Shown: positions 42,577 to 48,500 of the stretch, one piece after another
Layout: the number at the start of each line of letters is the position of its first letter
Position numbering within the stretch: position 1 is the first letter of the stretch
Assembly (NCBI RefSeq): GCF_017348835.2
Contig: NZ_CP071375.1
Origin: Escherichia coli
GTDB taxonomy: Bacteria; Pseudomonadota; Gammaproteobacteria; Enterobacterales; Enterobacteriaceae
DNA: 64,000 bases
Direction: 5' to 3' (one strand)
Made by a program: the position numbers

Positions 42577-45500
42577 TTACATGACGCGACAGGCAAACCC
42601 TTTCAGATATAGCCCTTCCGGATAGGTAGCGATCACCGGATGATCGGCCGCCTGACGGAACTGCTCTATAAATTGTACATCACGACCGGCATCAATTGCG
42701 GCATCCGCGATGATTTTCTGAAATAAATCGCTGGTCATCAGACCGGAACAGGAGAAAGTCAGGAGAATACCGCCTTCATTCAGCAACTGAATCGCCAGCA
42801 TGTTGATATCTTTATAGCCACGACACGCGCCCATCAACTGGCTTTTATTCTCAACAAACTTCGGCGGGTCCATCACGATAACGTCAAATTTTTCACCGCG
42901 ATCGCGATAAGTACGCAGCAATTTAAAGACATCATCACGGACAAACTCAGCCTTGCTCAGATCCAGTTTGTTCAGCTCAACGTTCTGCCGTGCAATATCC
43001 AGCGCTTCCTGGGAGGTATCAACGCTGACAACCTGGCTGCAACCGCCCATCAGTGCCGATACGGCGAAACCACCGGTATAGGAGAAACAGTTCAGTACGC
43101 GTTTATTTTCAACGTAGCGGCGGGTAGCCAGGCGGCTGTCTCGCTGGTCCAGGTAGTAGCCCGTTTTGTGTCCGTGCTGTATGTCCACCAGCAGCTTCAT
43201 GCCATGTTCTTCAATCGGCAGCAGGGCAGGCGGCAACTCGCCGGTGACGGGGCCCTGGGTCAGCTCCATCCCTTCTTTTTTACGTACCGCGACGTCGCTG
43301 CGATCGTAAATCGCACATTCCGGGTACAGCGTTTGCAGGGCACTAATTAATGCCGCGCGCTGATATTCTGCGCCAGCACTCAGCAGTTGCAGCACCAGAA
43401 AATTACCGAAACGATCGATAGTAATACCCGGCAGGCCATCAGATTCTCCGGCGATTAAACGATAGCTGTCGAGGCCATCTTTTTGCGCCAGCCAGTCACG
43501 CCATTTTTGTGCTTGTTGCAAACGGCGGGAAAAAAAAGCAATGTCGATAGACTCAGACGGGTCAAACGTCCAGACGCGCGCCCGGATTTGCGAAGCTGGC
43601 GAATAAGCGCCGCGTGCTAACCATTTTCCCTGATGATCAACAATATCGATGGTTTCACCGAGGCTGGCTTTACCTTCCATGCGGGCAACGGCCCCGGAAA
43701 AGACCCACGGATGGCGACGAAGTAATGATTTTTCGCGCCCTTTGGCTAACACTAAACGTACACTCATAATTTACTTTTCTGTCGATGCAAAGAAATGGGC
43801 GTCATTGTCCGGAGTTTTCCATGGATTTGCAACGCGTCCATTAAGGATAAGGAGAGCAGCAATGTCGAAAGTCTGCATAATTGCCTGGGTTTACGGGCGA
43901 GTTCAGGGCGTAGGATTTCGCTACACCACACAGTACGAAGCGAAAAGACTGGGCTTAACCGGGTACGCCAAAAATCTTGACGATGGCAGCGTGGAAGTGG
44001 TTGCCTGCGGTGAAGAAGGGCAGGTAGAAAAATTAATGCAGTGGTTAAAGAGTGGCGGCCCGCGTTCTGCGCGTGTAGAACGGGTGCTCAGCGAGCCGCA
44101 TCATCCCTCGGGGGAATTAACCGATTTTCGTATCCGTTAAATACATTTTACCGGTTTTGGCAGGCCAGCAATTTTGGTGGCTTGCTTAGCCGGACCTTTC
44201 GGAAACAGTCGGTATAAATAGCGGCTGTTACCTTTTTCTTCGCCAAATTTATTCGCCATCGCTTTTACCAGCATACGAATCGCCGGAGACGTATTAAATT
44301 CCAGGTAGAAGTCACGTACAAAACGCACCACTTCCCAGTGTTCTGGCGACAGCGAAATCCCTTCGTTCTCTGCAATCACCACTGCCAGCGGCTCACTCCA
44401 CTGGCTGCTTTCTTTGAGATAGCCTTCGGTATCCGTATCTATCTCTTTACCTTCGAAGATCAGCATAATTATTACTACCTTAATCAGACTGCCGGCAGTG
44501 TAACAAAAAACAAAGCCCCGCATAAAGCGAGGCTATGACAGTGTTAGCGGGTGAGATTAATCGCGGCTGGCGAAGCCCAGAATGCTCAGCAGGCTGACGA
44601 AGATGTTGTACAGCGAAACATACAGGCTAACCGTGGCACGAATATAGTTCGTTTCACCGCCATGAATGATGTTGCTGGTTTCAAACAAAATAGCGCCAGA
44701 GGAGATCAAAATGAAGACCGCGCTGATCACCAGATGCAGAGCAGGCAGCTGCAGGAAGATATTAGCAACCATACCAATCAGCACCACCACAATACCCGCC
44801 ATCAGCATACCGCCGAGGAACGACATATCTTTGCGGGTGGTCAGCACATATGCAGAGCAGCAGAAGAACACTAACGCCGTTCCGCCCAGTGCCATAGCGA
44901 TTACGTCACCCATTCCGGCAGACAGATAGGTGTTCAGAATTGGTCCGAGGATATAACCCAGAAAACCGGTAAAGGCGAATGCGGAGATAATCCCGGTCGG
45001 CTTATTCGCCGTTTTATAGGTCAGGAACATCAAACCATACATACCCACCAGCGTCAGAATCAGACCCGGAGATGGCAGCATCAGCACCGTACTGGCAGTT
45101 GCGGTAATCGCCGAAAAGGCCAGCGTCAGGCTCAGCAGAAAATAGGTATTACGCAGCACCTTATGGGTGCTAAGCAGTGATGTACGGTCATGTGAAGAAC
45201 TAACAATACGATCCATTGAGTCACTCTCTATGACAGATGTAATTAATTAAGCAGCATAATGATAATGCGTAAGGGCACCCAGAAGTTTTACCCATCTTTA
45301 CGCATTTGATCTGGAACAGGTTTAACAGCGGATTATCAGGTCATTAAGCAAATATAACGCCCTGAGAATTTCGACAGGCAAAAGAAAAAGGGGTTAGCAT
45401 TTAGCTAACCCCTTATCTTATTTGGCGGAAGCGCAGAGATTCGAACTCTGGAACCCTTTCGGGTCGCCGGTTTTCAAGACCGAAGAAAAACAAATAAAAA

Positions 45501-48500
45501 TCAGTGTAATACGTGAAATTGCTGAAAAGTTAATCAAATTTAACACCAAGAAAAATCAAGGTATTAGGAAGTTGCTCATAGCTAGTATACCAAGTCTTTT
45601 TGCCAGAAATTTTTCTGGATTGTCTACTTGCTAACCACGAGCGGCAAATCCAGTGTTGGTGTGATTTTTGTTTTACGATCGTAAATCAACACCTGATTTT
45701 CTGTTTTATGCCCGCTGAAAATTTGTTTGTCGCGACTGCTGCCTTCGTAATCTGAGATCCCCTTGGCTTTTATGTCGTGAAAATTGCACCCGAACGGAAC
45801 GCCAACTTTTTGCTCGGCTGCGCGTTTAGCCTGATTCCACCAGTTATTCAGCGTTTTAGCTATGACTTTCCCGCCTTTGGTTGTATTGATCACATATTCG
45901 CATGTACAGGAAGATACATTTCGGGCTAACTGGATCGCTGTACGTAATCGCGGTGACCATTCCTTGATTTGTTTGGTGCCGGTTTTGTTTTGCTCAATGT
46001 AGATCCCTTTATCCATAATATCCTGCCATTTCAACTCAAGCACATCACCGAGTCTTGCCGCACAGAGATAGGAAATCTCCATTGCAATGCGTAACTGTGG
46101 AATTGCTTCCGCATATATCGCCGCATACTGTTCATCGGTGATGTAAACAGTGCGGGCTTTAAGAGAGAATTTTCTGACTCCTTTGCATGGGTTATTCTTC
46201 ACATACCCACGCTCATATCCCCACCCGTATACTCGACTCAGGCTTGCCAGTTCATGATTTGCCTGGGTCTTGCTCTCAAGCCCTCGTTTATCCATGAAAA
46301 TTCTTACCTGCTCAGTTTTGACATTATCAGCAAGCACTTTTCCGAATACCATCAGCAACGCCTTCTGATGTTGTCGATAATCTTTTTGGGTTCGGGGGGC
46401 CAGTTCTGTAAATGCAGGGGAGTCCATAAACATGTGCCACAATTTAGCTACGGTCATTATGTTGTGGAGTTTTGCTTTTTCCAGTTCATAATTTTGCCAG
46501 ACTTTAGCTACGCTGGTTTTCCGCACTCTTCCTAGCCCTATACTTCTTGTACTTCCTTCGGGTTTCCACACGTAACTGTAACCATTCGATCTAACCCGCG
46601 GTGGCAGTACATTATCTTTTTTATTTTTTCTTGGTCTTCCCATTGTTCAGCGCCTCAAAATCGGGTTCAGCAGAAACCAGTTCAGATGTTTTTGGCATCG
46701 TTGTCAGACCGTGTGGAATATCCCTGCGGAGAACTATGGGTTCGTTTTTAGGGCCGATTACAAATGGGATGCCGTGCAGTCTTAACTGGTGTTGCTGTTT
46801 TGTGTATCGCTCGTATTTCGTGATCTCTTTAATCTCTGCTGGAGATAGAGTTAATTCGTACATGTGGTCACGTGCCTTTACAGCATGACCGCCGCCACTA
46901 TAGCTGGTGGGCGGCGATATGGGTTGAACATCAAAAATCAGCCTGACTCGGGAGCAGTTTTTGCCAGATGGCTGAAACGTATTTCGCCTGGTAACGTGCA
47001 TCGTTCAGAGCGTTATGGCGTTCACCTTCGAATGGAATAGTCGTTCTTGCGTCGAAATCCATCACCAGTCCCAGAGCAACCATCGTTCTTACATCGCGAT
47101 CATTGGTGTAACGCCATGGGCAGGGGATCCCCTGCCGTTCATATGAACGGCGTAAAATCACGTTGTCGAAAGTTGCACCGTTACCCCAGACCTGAACAAA
47201 AAATTCACCGGAGTTTTCGTCGATAAATTCCCGTAATTGCAGCAGTGCATCATCTAACGGGATTTCATCGGTAAGAATGGCGGATTGCGCTTCGCGTGAC
47301 TGTTTCAGCCACCACTTAATGGTGTCCCGATCAATGACTCCGCCAGCAGTTTCCAGATCGATAGTTTTGCTGAATTCTGGCCCCATCTCTCCGGTTTGCG
47401 GATCGAAAAATATTGCACCTATTGAGATAATCGGGGCATCAGGATTTTTTCCCATTGTTTCAAGGTCAATCATCAGATGGTGCCACAACCTGCTGGTGGA
47501 TGAGATTTCATGATGACCGTTCACTTTAATTAAGGGATTTGCTGTTTCGCCAGTTTTATTATCGCTGGCGTGATACTGATCGCTGCCAGTGTTCTCCTTG
47601 TGCAGATGTTCAGTGCCTTCCATTTCCTCCGGATCATTTTTCTGAGCTTCAGCCTGATTCTCTTCATCGAATGTTTCCAGGTAGGTTGCGTTCCCCATCA
47701 CCGCACCACAGTCAGGACAGTTGCCGCCACCGGTCTGACCGCATGCGGTGCAAACTTTTTCCAGTTCCTGTTGCACTGCTGGTTCTGGTTGTTGTTCTTC
47801 TGGCCCGTTTTGTTGCGTATCCGGGCTGTTTTGTTCCGCTTCTGGCTCATTTTGTTTCACGTTGGGCTGATTCTGGTCCTCAGCGTCGCGACTCTGGATC
47901 CCTTTCACCCATTTCGGATCATTCGGGTCGCTAATCCCTTCAACAAATTCACCACGTGATGCAGCAAGCAATTTATCGGCGTCAGGCTGGCTGATATTGG
48001 CTGCCTGCATAATTTTGTTTACTTCGTCAGCGGTAACTTTTACCGGCTCTGATTGTTCGGAATCTTCAGCGGTATCCACATTTTGCGGTAAGCCCGTGTA
48101 TGTGCCATTTTTTCGGGCAAAATATTCTTCTTTTGAGATTTCGGTACCGCCGGCAGCCAGCGCCTTGTCCAGACCAGAAAGTTTGTTTGCCCTGCCGTAT
48201 TTTTCCCCGCCCTTATCGGTAAAGACGAAATAAAATGGTCCTTCACGCTCTACAGATGGTTCAGCTTCCACTAGGATTTCATTTTTTTGAGTATCGGATT
48301 CTGCCGTCTCCACTGGAGCAGTTTGTGCTGCTGACGGCTGGAGAGCATCAGTAGAGCTCTGGTCTGTTTCTTCATGTTCAAACACGCCCTTTGTCGTCAG
48401 GTATTCACTGATATATTTGTTCAGTGCAACGGGATCTTTGTGAATATCGATCGGACGTTCGCGAACAAGGCCAAAAATAGTCTGACGGTCATAGCCAAGT

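What the first reader, a model, noticed from the sequence alone, without database searches (positions are those of the whole stretch)
45423..45623. Prophage junction within serT: only the 3' 60 nt of tRNA-Ser is present next to int
Identity to serT runs from the CCA end through the anticodon loop and stops abruptly at 45482, as expected for an integrase crossing over in the anticodon loop. The 5' 28 nt of the tRNA are not adjacent, so a functional serT must be reconstituted at the distal prophage end beyond this window. Having int next to the displaced fragment rather than the intact gene is the less common geometry.
Basis: partly seen in the sequence, partly recalled or inferred. Interest (0 to 1): 0.4.

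Follow-up and report, generated by a model that had tools for sequence, protein, structure and literature searches.

The report
Sp4-type prophage junction in serT
The 60-base tRNA-Ser remnant beside the integrase gene is the ordinary scar that a well-known lambda-like E. coli prophage (Sp4 type) leaves at one end when it inserts into the serT gene; the intact gene is rebuilt at the other end, so the finding is real but not new.

Summary
Window 45423-45482 (- strand) is an exact copy of positions 29-88 of E. coli serT. No tRNA finder reports a gene there, and the 5' 28 nt are absent from the window. It is the int-side junction of an Sp4-type lambdoid prophage. The Sakai reference annotates "prophage Sp4" from the equivalent of window 45418, and its integrase is 100% identical to the window's. 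742 of 5,426 complete E. coli genomes carry this junction. A deposited phage genome (Evi) holds the contiguous attP, and serT is a published prophage site. In PE164, the genome closest to the window (99.94%, same IS insertions), recombination with a sister prophage in serU has inverted 1.16 Mb. There the intact serT is distant and inverted, and the present far end carries a serU fragment. Having int beside the displaced fragment is the minority arrangement (2 of 8 elements inspected) but has a precedent in CP4-6. Side observations: the phage supplies a terminator look-alike for serT, there are candidate arm-type sites, and the integrase subfamily has Lys at the catalytic Arg-II position. Already known; low interest.

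The parts
44557..45216 (-). yccA, the native chromosomal neighbour downstream of serT
   Evidence: The ORF is. The sequence is identical to the K-12 locus and is annotated yccA in PE164, RM13514, F2_81 and Sakai.
45388..45414 (-). Native serT Rho-independent terminator hairpin with a U-tract. It now follows the displaced fragment and, further upstream, int.
   Evidence: The terminator scan finds 11 pairs and a T-run. The RNA fold gives -21.6 kcal/mol, z = -6.0. The sequence is identical to K-12.
45418..45482 (.). 65-bp att identity block (core), repeated at the other end of the prophage inside the intact serT
   Evidence: Exact copies were located in RM13514 (direct, 51,750 bp apart), F2_81 (direct, 51,543 bp apart), PE164 (inverted, 1,155,993 bp apart) and phage Evi attP. 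The Sakai Sp4 feature starts at the equivalent base.
45423..45482 (-). Displaced 3' fragment of serT, tRNA-Ser(UGA), positions 29-88. It runs from the anticodon stem through the loop, variable arm, T arm and acceptor 3' strand to CCA.
   Evidence: establish the identity. No tRNA is called by ARAGORN or Rfam. The numbering comes from ARAGORN's anticodon position 35.
45483..45623 (.). Int-proximal arm of attP (phage DNA). It is AT-rich and has two candidate arm-type Int sites, ACACCAAG at 45543-45550 and ATACCAAG at 45587-45594.
   Evidence: This arm is about 92% identical to the Evi attP arm. The motif occurs 6 times within +/-400 bp of the Evi attP, against 0.125 per kb in the window.
45624..46643 (-). 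int, a lambda-type tyrosine integrase of 339 aa, transcribed toward the junction
   Evidence: It matches PF00589. It aligns over its full length with lambda Int, including the N-terminal arm-binding domain (1z1b, E 5.6e-20). It matches PHROG integrase families. It is 100% identical to Sakai Sp4 ECs_1055.
46621..46863 (-). xis-like gene (DUF4224, 80 aa) overlapping the start of int by 23 bp
   Evidence: It matches PF13986 and the PHROG excisionase family phrog_1266 at E 1.9e-23. It is annotated 'phage excisionase' in Sakai.
46931..49402 (-). Prophage early-left gene: an 823-aa protein with a C-terminal 3'-5' exonuclease domain
   Evidence: Pfam family Rv2179c-like, E 6.8e-66. It is annotated exonuclease in all relatives.
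45483..64000 (.). Int-proximal 18.5 kb of the Sp4-type lambdoid prophage (early and regulatory region), running off the window. It is interrupted by two IS3 copies and one IS481-family copy.
   Evidence: It is colinear with PE164 at 99.94%, with F2_81 apart from the two IS3 copies, and with Sakai Sp4 at 99.3-99.4%.

Best explanation
The 60-nt block is the displaced 3' portion of the chromosomal serT gene. It sits at the int-proximal junction of an Sp4-type lambdoid prophage that integrated by Campbell-type site-specific recombination. The phage attP carries a 65-bp copy of serT positions 29-88 plus 5 bp, flanked by arms with repeated A[T/C]ACCAAG motifs. A lambda-type integrase encoded 141 bp from the core recombines attP with serT. 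One product is the junction in the window: phage int arm, then the serT 3' part, then the native terminator and yccA. The other product is a complete serT, made of the chromosomal promoter and 5' 28+ nt joined to the phage-borne 3' part and a phage-borne terminator look-alike, next to hyaA. Shown here: the anatomy of both junctions, the contiguous attP in a phage genome, and the rebuilt tRNA. Inferred: strand exchange occurs in the anticodon stem-loop. This is by analogy with the 56%-identical sister integrase at serU, where a natural sequence marker bounds the crossover to tRNA positions 29-47. Also inferred: the repeated motifs are arm-type Int sites. In the lineage the window comes from (PE164-like), later homologous recombination across a 23.9-kb late-gene block shared with the serU prophage inverted 1.16 Mb around the terminus. 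The two serT att copies are now inverted and far apart. Each hybrid prophage is flanked by non-cognate att sites, and precise excision is no longer possible.
For: The fragment is an exact copy, it is unique in the window, and no tRNA is called. Identity to K-12 ends at 45482. Phage Evi has the contiguous attP, with the P' arm identical to the RM13514 distal arm, the 65-bp core, and the P arm plus an int that is 97% identical in protein to the window's. An intact serT lies at the distal end next to hyaA in RM13514, F2_81 and Sakai. The native terminator is at the int side and the phage-type terminator follows the intact serT. The Sakai annotation of Sp4 uses these boundaries, and its int is 100% identical. 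The int is lambda-like over its full length and has a Xis-like neighbour. 742 of 5,426 genomes carry the junction. serT is listed as a prophage site in STEC (PMC8767318, PMC10132054). For the inversion: the window matches PE164 at 99.94% including the IS pattern. In PE164 the far end abuts yodB and carries a serU 3' fragment, while the intact serT is at 1.93 Mb on the other strand. The two prophages share 23.9 kb at 99.65% in inverted orientation. Similar prophage-bounded inversions of 1.2-1.4 Mb are published (PMC8743559). For the crossover bound: the rebuilt serU has G48/C59, while K-12 and the displaced fragment have A48/T59.
Against: The crossover point within the 65-bp serT core cannot be located, because the phage and host copies are identical. 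The window ends before the late region, so the inversion is inferred for its source from the nearest genome, and the near-identical strain F2_81 is uninverted. The integrase has Lys where lambda Int has catalytic Arg311, which by textbook expectation might impair catalysis. However, the Lys is fixed across the subfamily. Nothing was tested experimentally.
Confidence: 0.95

Rival explanations
1. The source genome of the window has the uninverted arrangement, as in F2_81, RM13514 and Sakai. In that case the intact serT sits about 51.5 kb away at the true distal end of a contiguous prophage, exactly.
For: F2_81 is almost identical to the window outside the IS copies (99.9-100%) and is uninverted. 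Prophage-bounded inversions arise and revert within cultures (PMC8743559). The window stops before the recombined late region, so it cannot show the arrangement directly.
Against: The window shares both IS3 insertions and the IS481 insertion with PE164, at identical positions. F2_81 lacks the two IS3 copies at those positions. PE164 is inverted.
Confidence: 0.2
2. serT was truncated by a non-specific event, such as a deletion, an IS-mediated rearrangement or illegitimate insertion of phage DNA. The cell would then have lost this tRNA gene and the break position would be accidental.
For: No intact tRNA and no serT 5' part are present in the window. The prophage carries three IS copies.
Against: The break is at the same base in 742 genomes and in the Sakai Sp4 annotation. 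The same 65 bp lie contiguously in a phage attP. An intact serT exists at the partner junction in every relative examined. No IS end abuts the break.
Confidence: 0.01
3. The 60-nt block is a phage-borne tRNA-like element with a function of its own, for example a processed RNA or a decoy, and not merely a recombination scar.
For: It lies downstream of int on the same strand and is followed by a strong terminator. Read-through int transcripts would therefore contain it. The phage keeps it 100% identical to the host gene.
Against: Identity to the host gene is required for att recombination and to rebuild a working tRNA, which explains the conservation. The block lacks the 5' half needed for a tRNA fold and is not called by ARAGORN or Rfam. 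No promoter above chance expectation was found next to it.
Confidence: 0.03

Closest known systems
Prophage Sp4 of E. coli O157:H7 Sakai (lambda-like phage at serT; I recall CP-933M of EDL933 as the equivalent, which was not checked here)
   Same: The chromosomal site and boundary base are the same. The integrase is 100% identical, and the xis-like and exonuclease genes have the same lengths. The early region is 99.3-99.4% identical in DNA. In relatives of the window's strain the cargo beside the intact serT is also tccP2 and a truncated espV.
   Different: The window's copy has two IS3 insertions and one IS481-family insertion. In the closest genome its late and distal part has been swapped with the serU prophage by an inversion. 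The Sakai int-side repeat has one SNP just after the CCA end.
Bacteriophage lambda Int/Xis/attP system
   Same: The integrase is heterobivalent and aligns with lambda Int from the N-terminal arm-binding domain to the catalytic Tyr region. A small Xis gene overlaps the start of int. Int is transcribed toward att. Repeated motifs lie on both arms, 2 on one arm and 3-4 on the other.
   Different: The target is a tRNA gene with a 65-bp identity block instead of lambda's 15-bp core in an intergenic site. Int lies beside the two-site arm, whereas from memory lambda int lies beside P' with three sites. H-x-x-K replaces H308-x-x-R311.
Sister prophage in serU of the same strain (PE164), and DLP12 in argU of K-12
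   Same: These are lambdoid prophages in tRNA genes. The serU int is 56% identical to the window's and has a DUF4224 Xis. The identity block begins at the homologous anticodon-stem position (CGGTCT-NGA-AAACCGG). The arm motif differs by one base, ATTCCAAG against ATACCAAG. The layout relative to the tRNA is the same, with the clustered sites next to the tRNA 3' end.
   Different: There int is convergent with the intact tRNA and 16-27 bp from it, and the displaced fragment is at the far end. So the whole attP cassette is flipped relative to int compared with the serT phage.
CP4-6 cryptic prophage at thrW (K-12)
   Same: This is the other inspected case where the intact tRNA is at one end and the integrase (intF) is at the far end beside the prophage boundary.
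   Different: The integrase is unrelated in type (466 aa, canonical H-x-x-R). intF is on the opposite strand to the tRNA, and the element is not lambdoid.

Membership tests
tRNA-gene-integrating prophage (Campbell model with regeneration of the target gene; Islander-type signature) | A fragment identical to the 3' part of a tRNA gene marks one end of the element | tested here: met
   60 of 60 identity at 45423-45482.
tRNA-gene-integrating prophage (Campbell model with regeneration of the target gene; Islander-type signature) | An intact, regenerated copy of the same tRNA gene marks the other end, in the same orientation, with the fragment downstream of it | tested here: met
   This is met in RM13514, F2_81 and Sakai, with direct repeats about 50-52 kb apart. 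In PE164, the genome closest to the window, the copy exists but is inverted and 1.156 Mb away after a secondary inversion. It is not visible inside the window itself.
tRNA-gene-integrating prophage (Campbell model with regeneration of the target gene; Islander-type signature) | A tyrosine integrase gene lies inside the element | tested here: met
   The gene at 45624-46643 matches PF00589 and aligns with lambda Int.
tRNA-gene-integrating prophage (Campbell model with regeneration of the target gene; Islander-type signature) | The free element carries attP with the tRNA-identical block joined to both arms | tested here: met
   Phage Evi, L006 2512-2576, has the block flanked by both arms.
Anticodon-loop sublocation class of tRNA att sites (Williams 2002, recalled from memory; the paper was not held) | The identity block runs from the anticodon stem-loop to the 3' end, and the loop is flanked by the symmetric stem arms | tested here: met
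   The block starts at position 29, in the 5' arm of the anticodon stem, and runs to CCA plus 5 bp.
Anticodon-loop sublocation class of tRNA att sites (Williams 2002, recalled from memory; the paper was not held) | Strand exchange takes place within the 7-nt anticodon loop | tested here: inconclusive
   This cannot be mapped for serT, because the copies are identical. In the 56%-identical serU system a natural marker bounds the crossover to positions 29-47. Mapping it properly needs experiments.
Lambda Int family of heterobivalent tyrosine recombinases | C-terminal catalytic domain plus an N-terminal arm-binding domain | tested here: met
   Residues 1-319 align with lambda Int residues 1-340 (1z1b, E 5.6e-20).
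Lambda Int family of heterobivalent tyrosine recombinases | Canonical catalytic residues Arg-I, Lys, His, Arg-II, His and Tyr | tested here: not met
   Arg-I (AARLGD), Lys (NKTG), H289, the GH motif and Tyr are aligned. Arg-II (lambda R311) is Lys292. The same is seen in Evi, in the serU int and in 116 of 120 homologue clusters. Five other E. coli integrases have Arg there.
Lambda Int family of heterobivalent tyrosine recombinases | Arm-type binding sites on both attP arms | tested here: inconclusive
   An enriched repeated motif lies on both arms. Binding was not tested.
Prophage Sp4 (O157:H7 Sakai) lineage | Same integration site and boundary, same integration module, homologous early region | tested here: met
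   the boundary is at the equivalent base, the int is 340/340 identical (stop included), and 22 kb of DNA is 99.3-99.4% identical.

The most novel reading that the evidence does not exclude
The serT-specific (Sp4-type) and serU-specific sister phages carry the same attP cassette relative to their tRNA targets, but inverted relative to int. Both target genes are on the K-12 minus strand but on opposite replichores (1.03 and 2.04 Mb). The flip may therefore be an adaptation that keeps the long late operon co-oriented with replication at each site. As a by-product it would place 24 kb of near-identical late genes as inverted repeats symmetric about Ter, favouring megabase inversions. In addition, this integrase subfamily would be a natural, active tyrosine recombinase with Lys in place of the supposedly essential Arg-II.
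Probability: 0.15. Interest if true: 0.4.

Novelty: already known. Interest (0 to 1): 0.15.

Why it matters
For genome annotation, this is a textbook case that marks the exact left boundary of an Sp4-type prophage (window 45418) and explains why no serT is called there. The tRNA gene is not lost; it is rebuilt elsewhere. The useful addition is a caution. In this lineage the partner att site is not at the other end of the contiguous prophage, because two sister prophages have recombined. Boundary finders that pair a tRNA with its fragment will therefore miss or mis-size both elements, and neither hybrid prophage can excise precisely. The Lys-for-Arg integrase subfamily and the flipped attP cassette are small leads for people who study tyrosine recombinases.

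Tried and rejected
1. I looked for a second copy of the 60-nt block, or for the serT 5' 28 nt, inside the window with up to 3 mismatches. Neither was found, so the partner junction is outside the window.

2. I tried to read Williams 2002 (NAR 30:866) by DOI and by a guessed PMC id, to cite the usual int/tRNA geometry. The paper is not held. The Islander paper does not state int position. I replaced this with a direct survey of annotated elements.

3. Literature searches combining serT with Sp4, CP-933M or yccA gave nothing or only unrelated papers on the serotonin transporter and similar topics. The link to Sp4 was instead established from the Sakai record itself.

4. I first assumed the far end of the PE164 prophage would carry serT. 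It carries yodB and a serU fragment instead, which led to the inversion analysis. Probes at 1.85 and 1.95 Mb served only to locate hya/serT.

5. NCBIfam gave no informative family for int or xis.

6. I considered and rejected accidental truncation of serT, and an independent function for the fragment (see the rival explanations).

7. I considered that the PE164 inversion might be an assembly artefact. It is not excluded. It is, however, consistent on both sides: both hybrid prophages have reciprocal ends and the att orientations match. It is also a documented kind of event.
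Full report
**1. Checking the observation**

- Window 45423-45482 on the minus strand reads CGGTCTTGAAAACCGGCGACCCGAAAGGGTTCCAGAGTTCGAATCTCTGCGCTTCCGCCA. This matches the 3' 60 nt of E. coli serT at every position, and it is the only such match in the window; none is expected by chance.
- I aligned the window against the annotated K-12 locus. The window is identical from yccA through the intergenic region, the serT terminator and the tRNA 3' part. All similarity is lost after 45482.
- The 5' 28 nt of serT are nowhere in the window, even with three mismatches allowed.
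- ARAGORN finds no tRNA in the 64 kb. A permissive Rfam scan of 40000-64000 finds no tRNA match.
- ARAGORN places the anticodon of the 88-nt gene at position 35. The fragment is therefore tRNA positions 29-88, and the break lies at the first base pair of the anticodon stem, 4 nt before the loop.

**2. What the feature is**

- The flanking genes on the phage side are:
  - a 339-aa tyrosine integrase at 45624-46643 (-). It matches PF00589 and aligns over its full length with lambda Int, including the arm-binding N-terminus;
  - an overlapping 80-aa DUF4224 protein that PHROGs classes as an excisionase;
  - an 823-aa exonuclease.
- The same yccA-fragment-int junction occurs in 742 of 5,426 complete E. 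coli genomes.
- In the O157:H7 Sakai reference the feature "prophage Sp4, lambda-like phage" begins 202 bp after yccA. That is the base equivalent to window 45418.
- The Sp4 integrase is 100% identical to the window's, and the surrounding 22 kb is 99.3-99.4% identical.
- serT is listed as a prophage integration site in published STEC genome comparisons (PMC8767318, PMC10132054).
- This is therefore a known element at a known site.

**3. The partner junction and attP**

- In O145:H28 RM13514 a lambdoid prophage extends from int to tail fibres, tccP2 and a truncated espV. An intact 88-nt tRNA-Ser(UGA) follows, next to hyaA. Sakai and the pig strain F2_81 show the same arrangement.
- Aligning both junctions with the empty K-12 site shows an exact 65-bp direct repeat. 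It consists of the 60 tRNA nt plus TTATT after the CCA end, at window 45418-45482.
- The deposited genome of Escherichia phage Evi carries the contiguous attP. Its espV-side arm is identical to the RM13514 distal arm, followed by the 65-bp core and then the int-side arm. Its integrase is 97% identical in protein to the window's.
- These three facts establish Campbell-type integration.
- The intact serT of lysogens is a chimera of the host promoter and 5' part with the phage 3' part.
- The phage also supplies a diverged look-alike of the serT terminator. It differs from the native hairpin by one compensatory G-C to C-G change, one wobble change and a loop shorter by one base. Both versions fold strongly, at -19 to -22 kcal/mol.

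**4. How it most likely works**

- The integrase resembles lambda Int end to end, so a heterobivalent mechanism with arm-type and core-type sites is the natural inference.
- An 8-bp motif, A[T/C]ACCAA[G/T], occurs six times within 400 bp either side of the Evi core. The window average is 0.125 per kb.
  - Three or four copies cluster on the arm next to the tRNA 3' end.
  - Two copies are dispersed on the anticodon-side arm. In the window these lie at 45543-45550 and 45587-45594, inside the finding's coordinates.
  - These are candidate arm-type sites; binding was not tested.
- The crossover cannot be located inside the serT core, because the host and phage copies are identical.
- A sister prophage in the same strain gives a bound on the crossover.
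  - It sits in serU, has a 56%-identical integrase and has a DUF4224 neighbour.
  - Its identity block begins at the homologous position of the anticodon stem.
  - The rebuilt serU carries a phage-type G48/C59 pair in the variable arm. K-12 serU and the displaced fragment carry A48/T59.
  - Exchange in that system therefore occurred between positions 29 and 47, in the anticodon stem-loop region.
  - I infer the same for serT.

**5. Geometry**

- In the serT phage, int and the tRNA-like block point the same way, so after integration int lies beside the displaced fragment.
- In the serU phage, int is convergent with the intact tRNA and 27 bp from it.
- Relative to the tRNA, both attP cassettes have the same layout: clustered motifs on the 3' side and dispersed motifs on the anticodon side. 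The whole cassette is therefore flipped relative to int between the two phages.
- I surveyed eight annotated elements.
  - Int lies beside the intact gene in six: argU/intD, ssrA/intA, argW/intS and leuX/intB in K-12, and serU and asnT in PE164.
  - Int lies at the far end only in CP4-6 (thrW/intF) and in the serT prophage.

**6. The twist in this lineage**

- The window is 99.94% identical to strain PE164 over 19.8 kb. It shares PE164's two IS3 insertions and one IS481-family insertion at identical positions.
- The near-identical strain F2_81 lacks the two IS3 copies at those positions.
- In PE164 the contiguous prophage ends next to yodB with a displaced serU 3' fragment, not next to hya.
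- The intact serT, with tccP2, the truncated espV and hyaA, lies at 1.93 Mb on the opposite strand, 1,155,993 bp from the int-side copy. It sits at the end of a prophage that begins with the frameshifted serU integrase.
- The two prophages share 23.9 kb of late genes at 99.65% identity in inverted orientation.
- Homologous recombination across this block explains a Ter-spanning inversion. Events of this kind are documented for O157:H7 (PMC8743559).
- F2_81 shows the ancestral state, with direct repeats 51,543 bp apart.
- For the window's source, the statement that serT is rebuilt "at the distal prophage end" is therefore true historically but probably not in the present map. Both hybrid prophages are flanked by non-cognate att sites and cannot excise precisely.
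- The window stops before the recombined region, so I give the uninverted alternative about 20%.

**7. Side observation on the integrase**

- At lambda's H308-x-x-R311 motif this protein reads H289-D-I-K292. The same holds in Evi and in the serU integrase.
- Five other E. coli integrases all have Arg at this position.
- Of the 120 best homologue clusters (55-100% identity, many genera of Enterobacterales), 116 have F-H-D-[I/L/V]-K and none has Arg. The other four are truncated.
- Lys at Arg-II is thus a fixed trait of an evidently successful integrase subfamily. I could not check whether this has been described.

**8. Verdict**

- The feature is the int-side att junction of an Sp4-type lambdoid prophage in serT. 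It is already known and of low intrinsic interest.
- The minor leads are the phage-supplied terminator, the flipped attP cassette between sister phages, the inversion that uncouples the att pair, and the H-x-x-K integrase subfamily.

Noticed in passing
window 45388-45414; L005 3868-3915; L006 2470-2517: The phage attP carries the serT 3' 60 nt and also a diverged copy of the serT terminator hairpin. It differs by one compensatory G-C to C-G change, one wobble change and a loop shorter by 1 nt. The rebuilt serT therefore terminates at a phage-supplied terminator, while the native terminator stays with the displaced fragment downstream of int.
   Followed up: yes
window 45768-45779 (codons H289-K292 of int): The integrase has H-D-I-K where lambda Int has the catalytic H308-x-x-R311. 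The Lys is conserved in phage Evi, in the serU integrase and in 116 of 120 homologue clusters across Enterobacterales, none of which has Arg. Five other E. coli integrases have Arg.
   Followed up: partly
window 45543-45550 and 45587-45594; L006 2440-2470: A repeated A[T/C]ACCAA[G/T] motif lies on both attP arms, 2 copies on the int side and 3-4 clustered on the other arm. These are candidate arm-type Int sites. The serU phage has the same layout with ATTCCAAG.
   Followed up: partly
L010 7806-7895 and L002 ~15658-15719 (PE164): A sister lambdoid prophage is integrated in serU. The rebuilt serU has a phage-type G48/C59 pair in the variable arm, while the displaced fragment and K-12 have A48/T59. 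This compensatory pair bounds the crossover to tRNA positions 29-47.
   Followed up: yes
PE164 NZ_CP114128.1, 1.93 Mb versus 3.09 Mb (L001, L002, L009); F2_81 L018, L019: A 1.16-Mb inversion lies between the serT and serU prophages, across 23.9 kb of 99.65%-identical late genes. It is present in PE164 and absent in the sister strain F2_81. It leaves both hybrid prophages with mismatched att sites.
   Followed up: yes
window 51302-52611 and 60033-61342: Two IS3-family copies, each with an ALIL frameshift pseudoknot (Rfam), are inserted in the prophage early region, one of them in ydfB. They are shared with PE164 and absent at these positions in F2_81, RM13514 and Sakai.
   Followed up: partly
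window 61489-62908: An IS481-family element (transposase ORF 61614-62687) sits between the sok/leader region of the hok/sok locus (Rfam sok 61489-61655) and the hokD coding sequence (62753-62908). This probably uncouples the toxin ORF from its leader.
   Followed up: no
window 50058-50109 (-): A DicF antisense sRNA (Rfam, 77 bits) lies next to dicB in the prophage immunity and early region, as in Qin-type prophages.
   Followed up: no
window 45603-45618: A short AT-rich hairpin (CCAGAAA-TT-TTTCTGG) lies 5 bp beyond the int stop codon, inside the attP arm. Its function is unknown; it could be a protein-binding site or a weak terminator.
   Followed up: no
window 46931-49402 (-): The 823-aa 'exonuclease' has its recognisable 3'-5' exonuclease domain only in residues 641-813. 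The N-terminal ~640 residues, which are acidic and Gln/Glu-rich in part, match no Pfam family.
   Followed up: no
window 53094-53381 (-) and neighbours: A RelE/ParE-family toxin gene with a small upstream antitoxin gene lies in the prophage early region, as annotated in PE164 and F2_81.
   Followed up: no
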